Shown piece by piece: positions 729-50,198 of a DNA stretch of 64,000 bases. Below the pieces are notes generated by a model. It was given only the letters and a program-made list of their open reading frames with translations. It was not told the origin of the DNA and ran no database searches. Position 1 is the stretch's first letter, and every line of letters starts with the position of its first letter. Source of the DNA: Octopus vulgaris (Eukaryota). The stretch lies in NCBI GenBank assembly GCA_951406725.2, contig OX597814.1, forward strand, positions 118,916,001-118,980,000. The letters are read 5' to 3'. Position numbers and translations under genes: made by a program.

Positions 729-1849
729 TTTCAACAACATTGAGGAACGGCCCCGATAGGCCATTCGACCCACTAGAAAGAGCAGCCAAGACTCAAACCG
801 CTAAATAGTAGTAATTCAGAAATTAAAGGAAAATTAAAAAACATTTACCCTATTTATATTTTGACAATGCATTGTTTCGACGTTCTTTATGGCAAACCAG
901 CCTAATTAAATTAAATTAAATTTAATCAAGTCAATCTACCAAATCGGAAAAGAAGCCAGGAGGAATAGATATACACGAGGCAGCAGCATTTGTGCCTCGG
1001 GAATATATACCCTAAATTTTCAAAACCACCGTAATCGCGCCAACTTATCAGCAGCAAATATAAACTGCTGTTTAACAATTATATATCCGCTGCATCGGAA
1101 ATCTCCAATGGCTCCATAACTACCGTCTCGGCTATGACCTTGGAGCCCCAGTAATCCGTTACATCACTTACCTGACATGCCTAATGGTTTAGACCACCTG
1201 TGAACTAAACCCCCATATTTTGTATAAATAGATAGATAGATACATACATACATACATACATACATACATACATACATACATACATACATACATACATACA
1301 TACATACATGCATACATATTTGCAGATAATTTAAATGCATTTAAAATAACGTGTTTCATTTTAAAGCTGATATTTGTGATCCTGAAAGCAATAGCTACTG
1401 TCTTGCTATTAATTGATATTACTTTCTTTGACGATAACCTATGTATTTCAATTGATTTTATATTTATTCTCTTGTGTAAATTAGTATTGTGAACGGTTTT
1501 GTCTTATGTACAACTAAAAATATAAACATATTCAATCTCCTATTAAAATCCTATTTGCGAAACCTTATTAATTTCGTGATCGTAATCAACATATTACTTC
1601 TGTTCAATGTACTTTGCAGTCATCATTGACGTTTTACATACGTACATATATATGTATGCGTGTGTGTGTGTGTGTGTGTGTATGTGTGTAAGTACCATTA
1701 TTTATACCACGTTGTATACACACATGACCACACACATATATACATGTAATATATAACCTTCTAAATTATCTTCTAACTTATAAATGCTCATACACATACG
1801 CAGATGTAAACAGATATAAGCGCTAACATAATTGTGTGTGTAAAGAGAG

Positions 1850-14924: not shown

Positions 14925-15852
14925 AAGATCCCATTTCTTTTAGCAACACTTTAATAGCTGTGGGCCCACGAATTGCAAGCTACTGGAGTACATGATCCTC
15001 AATCGAGACGGGACGCCTGTGCCCTTTAAAACAGTGTAGTGACGTCCAGTCTGGGGTTGGTATAACTTTCGATACCAAAGTTGGGTGCCATCCACTTCAG
15101 AATCTTCCATACATATATAACTGCATACCGCTCCAGTCTTCGCTCCAGGGTGTAGAGTCATAGCCATTTCAGTCTCTCCCAGTAGCTAAGCTGTTACATT
15201 TATGCAATCTTCCTAATGTAACACCGCTGAACTGTCTCACGTTCCGCGAGTAATTTGACACTAAATCGTGACGACAGATGAGAGCAGTAGTCCAAAAAAA
15301 TGAGTAGAAATATCATCTATAGATCCAGTATAGTTTCCTGGTCCATCGTTCTAAAGGTTTGAGAATCAATCTGGCCATTCTTCTGCACACTACCACTACC
15401 TTGATCACATCAACACCCGGACCAAATACTGTATGTGACTCTGGGATTACCACTCATTTCGTTGTTGCGACTTCTGAGCACAAATTTGCTGGTAGGAGGT
15501 GGTTTCGAATTTACTTGCATAAAAGTGCATGTTGTTATTTCAGCCGTTTTATGTCCTTCTGTAGAAGATTAGCATCCGATGGTCCCTTGACTGCTTGTAC
15601 CACCTTTGTGTCGTCCGTATAGCTAGTAAGTGTGACTGCCTGTGTAACTGATGGCATATCAAAAAGAGGCCCCATGAACAATGGCATTCCCAATAGAGCT
15701 CCCTGAGGCGCCCCATTCTCTATTACTGTTTCCTTGGAGAGGAATACATTGGCTGCCACAGCCTGCTTTCTGTCTTTTAAGAAGTCATGTAACCACTCTC
15801 CCAGTTTTCCGACTATGCCAAGATCTCGTAGTTTGTGACATATCATCCCATG
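14925..15852 (-). pseudogene. Degraded CR1/L2-group LINE reverse transcriptase fragment
   Basis: GAPQGALLG (GVPQG motif), YTDDTK (YADD motif), WLHDFLKDRKQ; TGRH...GPQL C-terminus matches the 8372 fragment. Confidence 0.85.
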
Positions 15853-15927
15853 ACCGACCGTCTCAACGGTCTAGATATACATACATACATACATGCATAT
15901 AGATGTATATGTTTATATGTCTATATG

Positions 15928-25266: not shown

Positions 25267-25358
25267 GCCGTCCAAGAATTTGGACCTGAAGATCTCCATT
25301 TCCAGCGACTTCGGGGGCCACCTTCCAGTGGTGTCGGGTGGCAACAAAGAGCCCTCGA
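25267..25358 (+). ncRNA. Predicted HDV-like self-cleaving ribozyme (split P1, no P4)
   Basis: P1 GCC+CGAC/GTCGGGT, P2 TCGGGGGC/GCCCTCGA, P3 ACC/GGT, L3 TTCCAGT, GG, catalytic-C position 25345; manual fold only. Confidence 0.55.
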
Positions 25359-25467
25359 CTACAACAAAACGACTAAGTTTTTTTTCCAAGGTCTGGGATC
25401 TCCCCTCCCTAAGCCCTAGACCATCACCTAATTACTCTTACCCGGCTTGTTGCTTAACAACAACAAC
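25267..25467 (+). mobile_element. Short non-autonomous retroposon without tRNA head, (AAC)n tail, copy 1
   Basis: Colinear with 33597-33822 from the same first base. Confidence 0.8.
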
Positions 25468-31570: not shown

Positions 31571-32038
31571 GAAGAAGATTTGATAGAAGAAATTGATGAA
31601 GAAGTACGTGTCGGATTTTCTTTTTTTTTTTTCTTTTTTAAAGAATTTTCCGACCACAGAAAATGAATAAGGTTCTCTCACGGTTCTAATGTATTTAGCT
31701 GAAAAACATCGATTCACTGAGATTAACCTTGCAGACAGCTTTCTGTAAAATCTATGAAGATTTAAAGTCTCAAATCGACAGGCAAGACAAAGCAATTCCA
31801 GTAAATGTAAATTAATTGAAATTTCAGAACGAGACAGAAGTACCAAAAATGTATCGGACTTAAGAAACCTCTTCGGCAAGATATAATCTGCTGTTTTGTT
31901 AAGATTAAGGGAATCGATATCGGTAAACAGAGGGAATGCAGTGTCATTCATATGTATGTAAAAAATATGTTGCTGGGATAATAACTCAAGAGTGCGCAGT
32001 GCATACCAATTGATATGCTCATCTCACTATATTAGTTA

Positions 32039-32407: not shown

Positions 32408-33030
32408 TTTGAGATGTAGTGAACGCGATAAAACGCATTTCATTAATCTCGAGCAAAAACACAGGTTTCATAGAAAATTCTGATCAAGTGATAATTGATC
32501 AAAAGCATTTATTAATGTTTTCATCAAATACAGTTCGTCCCATTTGGACGTTAAACAGAAAATTCTTATAACAGGTACTATAAACCCCTTTTGGAAAAAA
32601 ACAAACGTTGATTAAAATGCGATAAAGAAATCTGTAAATAAAAGGTATCGAACAGGTGATCGAGTACTACAGCTGCTACAAAGCACATGCGACGCAGTTT
32701 ACATTGATTCACTGAGATTAACCTTGCAGACAGCTTTCTGTAAAATCTATGAAGATTTAAAGTCTCAAATCGACAGGCAAGACAAAGCAATTCCAGTAAA
32801 TGTAAATTAATTGAAATTTCGGAACGAGACAGAAGTACAAAAAATGTATTGGACTAAAGAAACCTCTTCGGCAAGATATAATCTGCTATTTTGTTAAGAT
32901 TAGGAAAATCAATATCGATAAACAGAGGGAATGTAGTGTCATTTATATGTATGTAAAAATATGTTGCTGGGATAATAACCCAAGAGTACGCAGTGCATAC
33001 CAATTGAAATGTTCATCTCACAATAATATT

Positions 33031-33322: not shown

Positions 33323-33596
33323 CACAATAATATTAGTTATTTGAGATGTAGGGAACGCGATAAAACGCAGTCCGTTAATCTCTAGCAGACACACGGGTTG
33401 CATAGAAAACACTGATCACATGATAATTGATCAAAAACATTCATTAACCTTTTCCTCAAAAGGCTTCGACATTAAACAGAAAATTCTTATAACAGACGGT
33501 ATAAACCTCTTTTGGAAAACAACAATCGTTGCTTAAAATGCGATAAACAAATCCATAAATAAAACAGATGGAACAGGTAATCGAGTGCTACAGCTG

Positions 33597-33822
33597 GCCG
33601 TTCAATAATTTGGACCTGGAGATCTCCATTTCCAGCGACTTCGAAGGCCACCTCCAGTGGTGTGGTGTCGGGCGTCAACGAAGAGCCCTCGACTACAAAA
33701 CGACCAAAGTTTTTCTTTTTTTTTCCGAGGTCTGGGGTCCCCCACCCCTAAGCCCTAGACAATCACCTAATCACCCTTACCCGTCTTGCTGCTTAACAAC
33801 AACAACAACAACAGCAACAACA
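33597..33822 (+). mobile_element. Short non-autonomous retroposon with HDV-like 5' end, copy 2, 13-bp TSD
   Basis: TSD AGTGCTACAGCTG at 33584-33596 and 33823-33835; (AAC)n tail; absent from the preceding repeat unit. Confidence 0.9.
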
Positions 33823-34334
33823 AGTGCTACAGCTGCTGCAAAGAACATGCGACGCAGTTTACATCGATTCACTAAGATTAACCTAGCAGAGAGCTTTCTG
33901 TAAAATCTATGAAGATTTAAAGTCTCAAATCGACAGGCAAGAGAAAACAATTCCAGGAAATGTAAGTTAATTGAAATTTCGGAACGAGATAGAAGTAACA
34001 AAAATGTATCGGACTTAAGAGACCTCTTCGGCAAGATTGCGAGAGTCGTGTAGCCCTTCGAAATACTTTTACACCAGGTACCTGCGACTGTTCAGTTGAA
34101 AATAATCCGCTTTAATGGAGACTGCAAATGAAGGCTTCATGTCAAAAATGTCTATAGTAGTTGATATTGTAGAGATTCTATATAATGCTACTTTTTTGAC
34201 AATCTTCTGAGGAGGGAACGAGGCTAACTGGATTGGGTTATCAGAAGTTATGCCAGTTTTTTATGTTTATTACTTCTGTAGGCGCTTTCCTAACATGGAT
34301 TTTGGAAGTCTAATCATGATTTATAAGCTTTCAA

Positions 34335-42505: not shown

Positions 42506-42739
<234 letters not shown>

Positions 42740-43720
42740 ATGGTTCTCTGTGATCTGAGATTTCACCAGCCAAAATGCAAAACAAATGTCATCCCTCCTG
42801 TTCATCCATTTGACACTATGGATTTCCACAACGCAAACTGGGAAGCGATCAGTAATGATCTTGCACAAGTCGATTGGTCCTTCACGCACACATACACACC
42901 CACCAACATCAAAAACATCAAAAAGTCCTGGCAGTCATTTGTAGACACCATTACGAACATATGTGCAAAACACACCCCATTAAGATCTGCAAACATATCT
43001 AAGTGCAGAATCCCTAGAAATAGAAAAACTCTCATCAGGAAAATTAAAAGAATTAACAAAAAAATCAACAAGCTGAAATACTGTCAACAGCAACACACCA
43101 GCCTGACTGCCACCTCGTCGCTAGAGATTAAAAAACATAAACTCCAAAACAACATGATGTCTATCATCAATAGTCAGCGAAGAGCTGAAGAGGCCTGGGC
43201 TATTGAGAAGATCAAACTCAATCCCAAAGTGTTCTTTTCATTTGCAAAAAAACACAGAGTCACTGGTTCTACTGTTGTCCCACTGATTGATGAAAATGGT
43301 ACTCTTCAAGACAATGCCAAAACCATGGCAGAGATATTGCAGAAACAATACTGTTTTCATCAATCCTGATATGACTGATCTGGGCTGTATCAGTGATGTT
43401 ACTCCCCAATACACTTTATCGGACATAACCTTTGGCGCTCCTGATGTCTTAGCAGCAATAAAGGAAATGAAGCATAATTCAGCGGTAGGTCCCGATAGGT
43501 TCCCTGCTTGTGTCTTGAAGATGTGTCAACACCAACTTGCACTCCCTCTAGCCAATCTGTGGCGGAACTCACTGGATACTGGATATATACCAGAAGACCT
43601 TCTATCCCAGTCTGTTGTCCCTGTTTTCAAAAAGGAAACAAATCCCTTGCCGTGAATTACCGTACAATCTCACTCACTTCTCATATCATTAGGGTATTTG
43701 AGAGAGTGCTGAGATCGCGT
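42740..43720 (+). pseudogene. CR1/L2-group LINE ORF2 fragment (endonuclease-RT linker and RT start), frameshifted
   Basis: DFHNANWEAI, KLNPKVFFSFAK, SAVGPDRFPACVLK, VVPVFKK, NYRTISLTSHIIRVFERVL. Confidence 0.9.
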
Positions 43721-48249: not shown

Positions 48250-49515
48250 CGAGGGGCGTTCAATAAGTAATGCCCCTGACCCACTTACAATACCAGTAGA
48301 GCAACGAAACTTGGAACAGTTATTAGTCTTTTTCTACATAGGAAGCACCCAGAGTTACGCATTTCTCCCATCGTTTGATGCAGCTCTGAAGACCGTTTTT
48401 GTAGAAGAACCCAGCTTGGTTCTCCAACCACGACGTGACTTCAGAAATCAAGGCTGCATCATCTGGGAAACGCTTTCCTTTCAAAAACAACTTCATGGCT
48501 GGGAAGAGGTGAAAATAAGAGGGTGCAAGGTCAGGAGATGGGGGATGAGTTCATAGCCGCACGCCTGTGCTTCTGATCTGGCGACACGCGAGTTGTGGAT
48601 CGGAGCGTTGTCCTGCAGGAGGAGGATTCCTTTGCTGATCTTGCCCCGCCTCTTGATTTTGATAACTTCTCTTAATTTCCTCAAAAGTGAAGCATAATAG
48701 ACTCCTGTAATTGTGGCTCCCTTTGCCAAGAAATCTGTCATCGCTACTTCGTCCTGGTCCCAGAAGACTGAGCATGACCTTGCCAGCGGAGGGCTGCACC
48801 CTTGCCTTCTTTGGAGGAGGTGAGTCACGGTGCTTCCACTGCATTGACTGGGCTTTGGTATCTGGATCATAGTGATGGACCCAGGTTTCATCCTGTGTAA
48901 TCAGTCTTTTGAAAAATTTTGACTCATCTTCTTGGCACATCTTCAAATTCATCCTCGCGCAATTTACGCGTTCTTGCTTCTGGAAAGGTGTGAGCAACCT
49001 GGGAATCCATCTGGCAGACACCTTTTGCATATGCAAATGGTCATGAATGATAGTTTCCACAGACCCGGTACTAATCTTGACCTCATGGGCTATTTGGCGA
49101 ATAGTTATGTGTCGATCTTCCAAAATGGCAGCCTCAACTTGACGGACAGATGCCTCATCAATGGCAGAAGGGGCGACCAGATCTGGGAGCTGTTTCCACA
49201 AAGTTCCGACCATGTTTGAATTCACGATGCCAGCGTTTTACAAGGTCATATGATGGGGCATCATCACCATAAGTTACTTTTATTTCATCAAAATCTCCCG
49301 TGGTGTGCGTCCTTTCAAATACAAAAACCGCATCACTGCTCGACACTCAACAGGCTCCGTTTCACACTTGACTCAGTTTAAACACCTGTAAATCAGAAAC
49401 CACAATTAGTTCAGAGCTGTAATTTGCCATTTAATCTATAGAGATAGAGGTAATTGCACATGCAAATCAAACAACTGCAAGTGAGTCAGGGGCAGTACTT
49501 ATTGAACGCCCCTCG
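48250..49515 (-). mobile_element. Full-length mariner transposon (irritans-like), inactive transposase
   Basis: 31-bp TIRs CGAGGGGCGTTCAATAAGTA(A/C)TGCCCCTGAC with 1 mismatch, TA on both sides; WIPRLL, DETWV, LLQDNAPIH, SPDLAPS motifs across frameshifts. Confidence 0.95.
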
Positions 49516-49722: not shown

Positions 49723-49859
49723 ATATTATATATATATATAATATATTAAAAAATCGTTGGTGATTTTTCCTCCCCCTTCCATTCCTTGGATCTTTCCTTT
49801 TATTCTTTGTAAAAGAGTGCGGAGATGGTAGATGTGGGATCTTCAGTAAACCCACCTAC

Positions 49860-50198
49860 AAATACTTAGAGGGAGACAAAGAAAGGAAATTTAAACGTGG
49901 TCACATATTCAAAGTAAATGCAGATATGAACCTAATATACTGCATAACCTGCCCCACATGGAAGGAGGATTATATAGGTGAAACTGGAAATTCTTTATGC
50001 CAACGAGTCAGAATTCACCGACAACATGTTCGACAGGAGGAACTGTGCAAGATGCCACCGAGTAAACACCTAGATAGATGTGGAGAAGGAAATTTTAAGA
50101 TCTTTCCCTTCTACAAATGTCCAAAGAATGACACCTCCTTCAGGAGGAATATGAGAAAATACTTCATAACTAAGTTCTCACCCAAATTGAATGGCTGA
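49860..50198 (+). pseudogene. Penelope-like element GIY-YIG endonuclease C-terminus
   Basis: NLIYCITCPTWKEDYIGETGNSLCQRVRIHRQH..SKHLDRC..FKIFPFYK. Confidence 0.85.

What the first reader, a model, noticed from the sequence alone, without database searches (positions are those of the whole stretch)
25267..25467. Short retroposon that begins at G1 of an HDV-like ribozyme whose P1 is split by a two-hairpin four-way junction
Seen: this ~200-bp (AAC)n-tailed repeat has no tRNA A/B boxes, and both copies (25267, 33597) start at the same G. The first 92 nt map onto the HDV/CPEB3 nested pseudoknot: P2 TCGGGGGC(C)/(G)A-GCCCTCGA, P3 ACC/GGT, 7-nt L3 TTCCAGT, P1' GTCGGGT, GG for P1.1, P4 reduced to CAA, then C-A/G-A-A with the candidate catalytic C at 25345. 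The partner of P1' is GCC (25267-69) plus CGAC (25306-09), giving a 7-bp P1 with the G1-U wobble. These two halves are separated by two abutting hairpins, GTCCAA-GAAT-TTGGAC and CTG(G/A)AGAT-CTCC-ATTTCCAG. Established: HDV-like ribozymes define the 5' ends of R2 and RTE LINEs and cleave 5' of G1. Inference: this is a promoter-independent element that excises itself from host transcripts, with a P1-interrupting junction I do not recognise from described HDV-like ribozymes.
Basis: partly seen in the sequence, partly recalled or inferred. Interest (0 to 1): 0.85.

Follow-up and report, generated by a model that had tools for sequence, protein, structure and literature searches.

The report
Ribozyme-headed mini-retroposon with split substrate helix
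This is a roughly 200-base jumping element, estimated at about 3,000 copies in this animal genome, that shares both ends with an Ingi-type LINE and starts at the first base of a predicted self-cutting (HDV-like) RNA whose substrate helix is predicted to be interrupted by two hairpins, a layout that searches requiring an unbroken helix would likely miss.

Summary
Real. The repeat has 1,061 exact 3'-anchor matches, about 3,000 copies. In a sample picked by 3' end alone, 63 of 71 start at the same G. An empty paralogous site in the window fixes copy 2's boundary at that G.

The HDV-like fold holds up: 0 of 200,000 shuffles fit the descriptor, and the nascent RNA folds into the four-way junction. 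A sister LINE family keeps the core, has a 1-nt bulge where the hairpins sit, and shows four compensatory pair changes.

The partner is not RTE. It is an Ingi-type LINE (RNase H, CCHC knuckle) sharing the last 31 nt and the ribozyme head. That makes this an animal counterpart of trypanosome NARTc/RIME.

Corrections: G1-U, GG and TTCCAGT are window-copy or minority variants; the majority has G1-C, GT and TCCCAGT. 'Promoter-independent' is unproven, because L1Tc's ribozyme region is also a promoter.

Cleavage is untested, and the hairpins show no covariation. New variant of a known kind.

The parts
25267..25467 (+). Copy 1 of the short element (decayed), next to a (TACA)n microsatellite; no clear target-site duplication
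25267..25269 (+). P1a 5' strand GCC; G1 is the predicted cleavage site and the element's first base
25270..25285 (+). Inserted hairpin H1 (6 bp, GAAU loop), predicted
   Evidence: pair probabilities 0.7-0.99 in the majority sequence; position 6 is U or C against G17
25286..25305 (+). Inserted hairpin H2 (8 bp, CUCC loop), predicted; G23A mismatch in this copy
25306..25309 (+). P1b 5' strand CGAC
   Evidence: G-C versus A-U compensatory change in the sister family
25311..25319 (+). P2 5' strand; pairs with 25349-25358, with a bulged A at 25350
   Evidence: 3 of 7 core pairs change on both sides between families
25320..25339 (+). P3 (ACC/GGT), 7-nt L3 and P1 3' strand
   Evidence: same P3 in the sister family and in metagenomic element L361
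25340..25348 (+). G for P1.1, 4-nt linker in place of P4, predicted catalytic C at 25345, J4/2
   Evidence: C79 in 152 of 167 copies; the sister LINE has a short P4 hairpin here
25359..25429 (+). CAA-rich spacer, T run (25378-25385) and C-rich hairpin; LINE-linked pieces cover it up to element position 146, positions 147-163 are unassigned
25430..25467 (+). Last 31 nt shared with the 3' end of the Ingi-type LINE, then the (AAC)n tail
33597..33823 (+). Copy 2, core damaged; flanked by a 12-bp target-site duplication at 33585-33596 and 33824-33835
32664..32675 (+). Empty paralogous target site (single copy of the 12-bp target) in a tandem duplicate of copy 2's flanks

Best explanation
This is a non-coding retroposon of about 200 bp that shares its head and its last 31 nt with an Ingi-type LINE, likely arose from it by internal deletion, and starts at G1 of a predicted HDV-like self-cleaving ribozyme. 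Likely cycle: (1) RNA polymerase II transcribes a copy by read-through or from an internal promoter (inferred; the internal T run argues against polymerase III). (2) While the RNA is being made, the two hairpins fold and bring GCC and CGAC together, so both pair with the P1 3' strand in a four-way junction and act as one 7-bp P1 (predicted by folding, supported by the sister family). (3) C79 promotes cleavage 5' of G1, giving a unit-length RNA with a protected 5'-OH end (inferred from known HDV-like chemistry, untested). (4) The LINE protein binds the shared 3' end, nicks the target and primes reverse transcription, helped by pairing of the (AAC)n tail with CAA/CAG-rich targets (inferred). Shown directly: uniform 5' ends, target-site duplications of mostly 9-17 bp, both ends shared with the LINE.
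For: 5' ends: 63 of 71 anchors chosen by 3' end and genome position start within 3 nt of G1 (one of these, L210's first copy, aligned only from base 7 under another scoring); 27 of 30 in a 3'-half search. An empty site fixes copy 2's boundary at G1. Duplications found in 37 of 38 full-length copies with non-repetitive flanks, 25 ending directly at G1. Partner: 42 matches to a LINE 3' part; 28 of 30 loci carry the shared 3' end (27 nearly whole, one cut short); RNase H at E 1e-11 plus a CCHC knuckle; nearest full proteins are single-ORF APE+RT+RNase H. The head is on the LINE too: 8 of 30 LINE loci carry it inverted against the LINE body, 5 of the 8 ending exactly at G1; one more inverted and two same-sense fusions were found. 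Variant C30A is in 5 of 11 LINE-linked pieces and 0 of 167 short copies, so these pieces likely come from a separate master. Fold: 0 of 200,000 shuffles; the 74-nt nascent minimum-energy structure contains the junction (P1a 0.99, P1b 0.65). Sister LINE L285 (46% identical protein; full length, 11-bp duplication, starts at G) has GCC-T-CAAC/GTTGGGC, the same P3 and L3, the same bulged A, and four double-sided changes, one in P1 and three in P2. A distant Vingi-type element has an unbroken 7-bp P1 with the same P3 and GT.
Against: No cleavage data and no usable RNA data. No compensatory changes among 167 copies beyond scattered decay, so the two hairpins rest on folding prediction only; the insert's fold is modest (z -2.0; 38 of 1,000 shuffles as stable). 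In the full 93-nt nested fold P1 disappears in favour of P2 and P3 (pseudoknots are not modelled), and P3 is absent from the 74-nt fold. J1/2 is 1 nt unless two P2 pairs fray, and 1-nt spacers gave little activity in another HDV-like ribozyme (PMC4908430). P1 mismatches are reported to impair these ribozymes (PMC3774820). Covariation comes from one family-to-family comparison: four events, and 104 of 500 shuffles reached the count of three double-sided pairs. No full-length copy of the partner family was found (8 matches). In all 3 short derivatives of the sister family the predicted catalytic C is replaced by A, so some such elements may move without it. Only 1 of 48 upstream regions of metagenomic relatives gave a convincing ribozyme.
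Confidence: 0.72

Rival explanations
1. The head is a vestigial ribozyme. The hairpin insertion killed or nearly killed cleavage, and the uniform 5' end comes from an internal polymerase II promoter that starts at +1, as Pr77 does in L1Tc.
For: Pr77 is an internal promoter initiating at +1 (PMC3383444 passages; PMC3185411 passages). The sister family's short derivatives lack the catalytic C. P1 defects impair HDV-like ribozymes.
Against: The master kept every core base and all 7 P1 pairs around a 36-nt insert whose ends abut the P1 halves exactly. Nine of the 11 LINE-linked pieces keep C79; the other two show a CpG-type C-to-T change. The two functions coexist in L1Tc, so a promoter would not exclude cleavage.
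Confidence: 0.17
2. It cleaves, but with a different P1: only the 3-bp P1a or only the 4-bp P1b forms in the active state, and the hairpins act as a J1/2-like domain or refold, so there is no true four-way junction.
For: P1b probability is only 0.65 at 74 nt and 0.42 at 79 nt, and competing pairings exist. Structured J1/2 domains are well known (PMC4908430).
Against: The P1b pair 41-69 changes on both sides between families while P1a is kept, and both families start at the G that pairs with base 73.
Confidence: 0.08
3. The short element is a chimera: an independent ribozyme-headed RNA that picked up a 31-nt Ingi tail. The LINE-linked heads would then be template switches onto short-element RNA.
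For: No intact full-length partner found; positions 147-163 are not seen on any LINE-linked piece; other tail-swap chimeras exist (L156, L160, L166).
Against: The C30A variant is confined to LINE-linked pieces. The sister LINE carries the homologous head at its own 5' end and has made the same kind of two-ended derivative.
Confidence: 0.03

Closest known systems
NARTc/L1Tc and RIME/ingi (trypanosomatid Ingi clade; Pr77 hallmark, L1TcRz)
   Same: Non-coding derivative sharing a ribozyme head and about 30 terminal nt with its LINE (NARTc: first 77 and last 30 nt; PMC3383444 passages). Element starts at the ribozyme's +1. Single-pair P1.1 (PMC3185411 passage). A primer printed in that paper implies the same GGT-G..GGG stretch after L3. 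The sister LINE has a 2A-like motif and RNase H.
   Different: Animal host; about 3,000 copies; (AAC)n tail instead of poly-A; G1-C instead of C1-G; P4 absent; P1 interrupted by two hairpins. No promoter or cleavage test here.
R2 SIDEs and R2 ribozymes (Eickbush)
   Same: Short internally deleted elements that keep a 5' HDV-like ribozyme (PMC3414825, start of abstract in search listing). P4-less ribozymes occur in silkmoth R2 and abalone (PMC3774820 passages).
   Different: R2 is rDNA-specific with a restriction-like endonuclease, and its large inserts lie in J1/2. Here insertion is dispersed and the insert lies inside the P1 5' strand.
Bipartite non-autonomous RTE, Ingi and Vingi LINE derivatives (Kojima 2018, PMC5786205)
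   Same: 5' plus 3' LINE ends, no tRNA head, thought to be polymerase II transcribed (passages).
   Different: That paper's main text does not contain the word octopus, and the passages seen describe no ribozyme structure for such elements in animals.
HDV-like ribozymes with peripheral domains (drz-Agam-2 P1.2; fungal variants; CPEB3)
   Same: Nested double pseudoknot, 3-bp P3, 7-nt L3 with U..G, C-G-A-A in J4/2; a peripheral helix could speed folding (PMC4908430).
   Different: In the texts read, extra domains sit in J1/2 or P4, or one base lies between P2 and P3 (PMC5640933 passages). None sits within P1.

Membership tests
HDV-like ribozymes | P3 (3 bp) closing L3 with U first and G second-last | tested here: met
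   ACC-TCCCAGT-GGT in the majority of 167 copies and in the sister LINE
HDV-like ribozymes | P2 crossing P1, supported by covariation | tested here: met
   3 of 7 pairs change on both sides between the two families; one comparison only
HDV-like ribozymes | About 7-bp P1 starting at the cleavage-site base | tested here: met
   7 pairs are possible only as 3+4 around a 36-nt insert; base 1 is the element boundary
HDV-like ribozymes | Unbroken P1 helix (published consensus) | tested here: not met
   36-nt insert here, 1-nt bulge in the sister LINE; this is the variant feature
HDV-like ribozymes | P1.1 of 1-2 bp and catalytic C in J4/2 (C-N-R-A) | tested here: met
   C59-G74 in 146 of 167; C79 in 152 of 167
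HDV-like ribozymes | P4 helix (dispensable in some natural members) | tested here: not met
   4-nt linker; the sister LINE has a short P4; P4-less natural members exist
HDV-like ribozymes | Match to an Rfam HDV-type model | tested here: not met
   no such hit at E<=10
HDV-like ribozymes | Mg2+-dependent self-cleavage 5' of position 1 | not testable with these tools
   needs a bench assay
Bipartite non-autonomous LINE derivative (NARTc/RIME/SIDE type) | 3' end shared with a LINE | tested here: met
   last 31 nt plus (AAC)n, in 28 of 30 LINE loci
Bipartite non-autonomous LINE derivative (NARTc/RIME/SIDE type) | 5' end shared with the same LINE | tested here: met
   11 LINE-linked head pieces, 5 with a variant absent from 167 short copies; shown on rearranged copies, no full-length copy found
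Bipartite non-autonomous LINE derivative (NARTc/RIME/SIDE type) | Dispersed copies with target-site duplications | tested here: met
   37 of 38 copies with non-repetitive flanks; empty site
Ingi clade (partner LINE) | APE + RT + RNase H + C-terminal CCHC, no ORF1, 2A-like motif | tested here: met
   partner: RNase H and CCHC only; sister L285: 2A-like GDIETNPGP, PHD, APE, RT, RNase H (APE and RNase H just under Pfam's cut-offs in these broken frames); motif and clade description from PMC3708506 passages
Ingi clade (partner LINE) | Groups with L1Tc/ingi in an RT phylogeny | not tested
   no named reference sequences were available; the clade call rests on domain layout
RTE-derived element | Ends shared with an RTE LINE | tested here: not met
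   no shared end in the 30 best RT loci, which include three RTE-like families; the partner has RNase H, which RTE lacks (recalled)
tRNA-derived SINE | A and B boxes or a tRNA-like head | tested here: not met
   internal T run

The most novel reading that the evidence does not exclude
An active HDV-like ribozyme whose substrate helix P1 is built across a perfect four-way junction. The natural series (unbroken P1 in a Vingi-type element, 1-nt bulge in the sister Ingi LINE, two hairpins here) would define position 3/4 of P1 as an insertion site. The junction's two stacking forms could switch cleavage on and off, and about 1,400 copies with an intact core (46% of about 3,000, from a sample that favours well-preserved copies) could cut host pre-mRNAs. 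A hidden class of split-P1 ribozymes would have escaped all searches that demand an unbroken P1.
Probability: 0.55. Interest if true: 0.7.

Novelty: new variant of a known kind. Interest (0 to 1): 0.55.

Why it matters
HDV-like ribozymes are found with descriptors that assume an unbroken P1, and P1 defects are thought to cost activity. A successful mobile element that carries two hairpins inside P1 would widen the fold's known tolerance, explain why Rfam misses it, and give a new search pattern. It would also extend the trypanosome NARTc/L1Tc design (ribozyme head plus about 30-nt tail) to a large animal family. At about 200 nt it is a compact natural template with mostly full-length insertions, of interest for RNA-only gene insertion, where HDV-like 5' modules raise efficiency (PMC11331408 passages). 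The claim is cheap to test with a 95-nt transcript and a few mutants.

Tried and rejected
RTE partner: the RVT_1 search returned mostly one CR1-like family and three RTE-like ones (family labels are my reading of the translations); none shared an end. Patterns asking for a different sequence right after the head or 4 nt before the last 28 nt gave 2 hits each, and those inspected were deleted short copies; the second pattern missed the LINE because the shared part is 31 nt. Full-length partner: not found. A third ribozyme family in the genome: one search used a pattern one base too long and its 4 hits were unrelated; the corrected pattern gave 73 hits, and of the 30 read 27 were this family, 2 the sister family and 1 unrelated. 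Within-family covariation: uninformative, copies lie 3.9% from the majority with CpG decay. Metagenome relatives: 1 convincing ribozyme in 48 upstream regions; a looser scan gave 12 forward and 16 reverse hits, which is background. Rfam: nothing relevant. Expression: no RNA holder listed. The single read-laying run used the sister family's head on contigs only and says nothing on RNA ends. Alternative P1 (GCCGUCC with GGGUGGC) fits only window copy 1's private changes and leaves no G for P1.1; rejected on the majority sequence. Unbroken P1 from CAGCGAC has three mismatches and would put the cut at base 37, against the 5'-end data. No earlier scan findings. Ruminski 2011 and Webb 2011, the most likely places for a precedent, were not held.

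Full report
Observation. The host genome G000 has 2.8 Gb in 227 contigs. It is microsatellite-rich and looks like an octopus to me; that label is a guess from recall, not a tool result. An exact 24-nt 3' anchor occurs 1,061 times, the reversed control 0 times. Of 57 loci found by their 5' half, 19 carry that anchor exactly, which gives roughly 3,000 copies. The 167 non-redundant near-full copies in hand lie 3.9% from their majority sequence; part of this set was selected for similarity, so the figure is a lower bound.

It is a retroposon with a fixed 5' end. I took 70 of the first 78 listed anchor matches on contig C1 (71 anchors; the sample is blind to the 5' end). Of these 63 begin within 3 nt of G1 and 8 do not; two of the 8 are LINE pieces, and one of those (L148) itself begins at G1 further upstream. 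Of 38 full-length copies with non-repetitive flanks, 37 have a target-site duplication, mostly 9-17 bp, and 25 end directly at G1. The window holds its own control. Copy 2's flanks are duplicated about 0.9 kb upstream without the insert; the 12-bp target is single there and is followed by C, so the insert starts exactly at G33597. Many targets are CAA/CAG-rich (20 of 63 end in GCA). There is no A box, no tRNA, and an internal T run.

The partner. One sampled locus, L148, ran from the head through the T run into a coding stretch with a CCHC knuckle and then the element's last 31 nt. Searching with it gave 42 matches; 28 of the 30 loci fetched carry the same 3' end, one of them cut short. The longest fragment encodes RNase H (E 1e-11), and its nearest full relatives are single-ORF APE+RT+RNase H proteins. 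In 8 of those 30 loci the head lies inverted against the truncated LINE body, and 5 of the 8 end exactly at G1; the others stop at 3, 5 and 27. This is the pattern of twin-primed 5' inversion (mechanism recalled), in which the second cDNA runs to the RNA's 5' end, so it points to a LINE RNA that starts at G1. A ninth inverted case and a second same-sense fusion came from the protein search. Five of these 11 pieces have C30A, in the loop of hairpin 2, against 0 of 167 short copies. They therefore likely come from the LINE's own head and not from short-element RNA. No full-length copy of this family was found. The RTE-like families examined share no end.

The sister family as a test of the fold. 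A second LINE family, 42-53% identical in the RNase H and C-terminal region, has a full-length but broken copy, L285, with an 11-bp duplication and a first base G. It carries a 2A-like motif, PHD fingers, APE, RT and RNase H, the layout described for the Ingi clade (PMC3708506 passages; Vingi lacks RNase H, PMC13708176 passage). Its head reads GCC-T-CAAC, P2, ACC-TCCCAGT-GGT, GTTGGGC, GT, a short P4, C-G-A-A, P2'. MAFFT opens the 36-nt gap right after GCC without guidance. P1 pair 41-69 is G-C here and A-U there (read by hand, since MAFFT shifts that strand by one column). Three P2 pairs change on both sides around the same bulged A, and one outer P2 pair is broken in the sister family. The bulge could also sit one base later with a U-G pair. 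A metagenomic element without RNase H, L361, starts with an unbroken 7-bp P1, the same P3 and GT. It was the only convincing case in 48 upstream regions, many of which probably lack the element's 5' end.

Folding. My HDV-like descriptor matches the majority sequence and 0 of 200,000 shuffles. For the RNA as it stands when P1' has just been made (74 nt), the minimum-energy structure contains the four-way junction (P1a 0.99, hairpins 0.7-1.0, P1b 0.65), though not P3. A natural copy, L003, folds the same way (z -2.1); window copy 1 loses P1b. Of 167 copies, 77 keep all core features. The hairpins have no covariation support: the copies show only scattered decay and the sister family lacks them.

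Results against the reading. Nothing here shows cleavage. A 1-nt J1/2 gave little activity in another ribozyme (PMC4908430, first of four parts read); here two P2 pairs may fray to give 3 nt, close to the sister family's 2 nt. P1 mismatches impair R2 ribozymes (PMC3774820 passages). The sister family's three short derivatives have A at the catalytic position. In L1Tc and NARTc the ribozyme's 77 nt are also an internal promoter starting at +1 (PMC3383444 passages), so uniform 5' ends do not prove cleavage or promoter independence.

Comparison and novelty. It works like NARTc/RIME: a two-ended derivative of an Ingi-type LINE with a ribozyme head and about 30 shared terminal bases. That kind is known (PMC4035085, parts 1-2 of 7 and passages; PMC5786205 passages; PMC6765202 passages). 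Ingi membership rests on domain layout, not on a tree. I found no report of this family or of an insert inside P1 in ten searches, most hits being seen only as listings. A 2026 octopus repeat annotation has no mention of ribozyme, Ingi or Vingi in its main text or in the one small supplement held; its repeat library was not among the files. Ruminski 2011 and Webb 2011 were not held, and Repbase and Dfam could not be checked, so a precedent is not excluded.

Verdict. New variant of a known kind; interest 0.55. Probability that the split-P1 junction is the active form: about 0.55.

Noticed in passing
L156, L160, L166 (about 1440-1590, minus strand): The last 57-67 nt of the element sit directly behind the end of another abundant repeat at three independent loci; possibly a tail-swap chimera family or insertion by microhomology.
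   Followed up: no
L309, L310, L311 (from 1501): Short two-ended derivatives of the sister LINE (first about 160 nt plus last about 70 nt). All three have A at the predicted catalytic C and an altered L3; L309 has an unbulged C1-G P1.
   Followed up: partly
L217, L221, L224, L234, L235, L239, L272 and L227: The inverted 5' pieces begin at element positions 108-112, next to CAG/CAA-ending flanks: an apparent hotspot for second-strand priming just behind the ribozyme. L227 has only 9 nt of it. The sister family shows similar inversions (L287, L288).
   Followed up: partly
L285:2308-7000: Full-length but broken Ingi-type LINE with 2A-like motif, several PHD fingers, APE, RT, RNase H and a (AAC)n tail.
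   Followed up: partly
L361:12-3181: Vingi-type element from a metagenome contig with an intact 1,034-aa frame and a canonical HDV-like head.
   Followed up: partly
positional sample L145-L214: The base before G1 was A 45, T 13, C 5 and G 0 times, though G does occur in other samples.
   Followed up: no
window 31706-31882, 32465-32877, 33397-34100: A local tandem duplication of about 0.9 kb period; one unit carries copy 2, so the insertion may postdate the duplication.
   Followed up: partly
window 48551-49237, 42734-43655, 15535-15870, 49764-50198: Fragments that read like a mariner-type transposase, CR1-like LINEs and a GIY-YIG nuclease; labels recalled from the translations, not tested.
   Followed up: no
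L027, L210: Head-to-tail arrays of two or three copies separated only by microsatellite.
   Followed up: no
G000, RVT_1 search: A very young CR1-like LINE family with many intact 949-aa frames dominates the best reverse-transcriptase hits.
   Followed up: no
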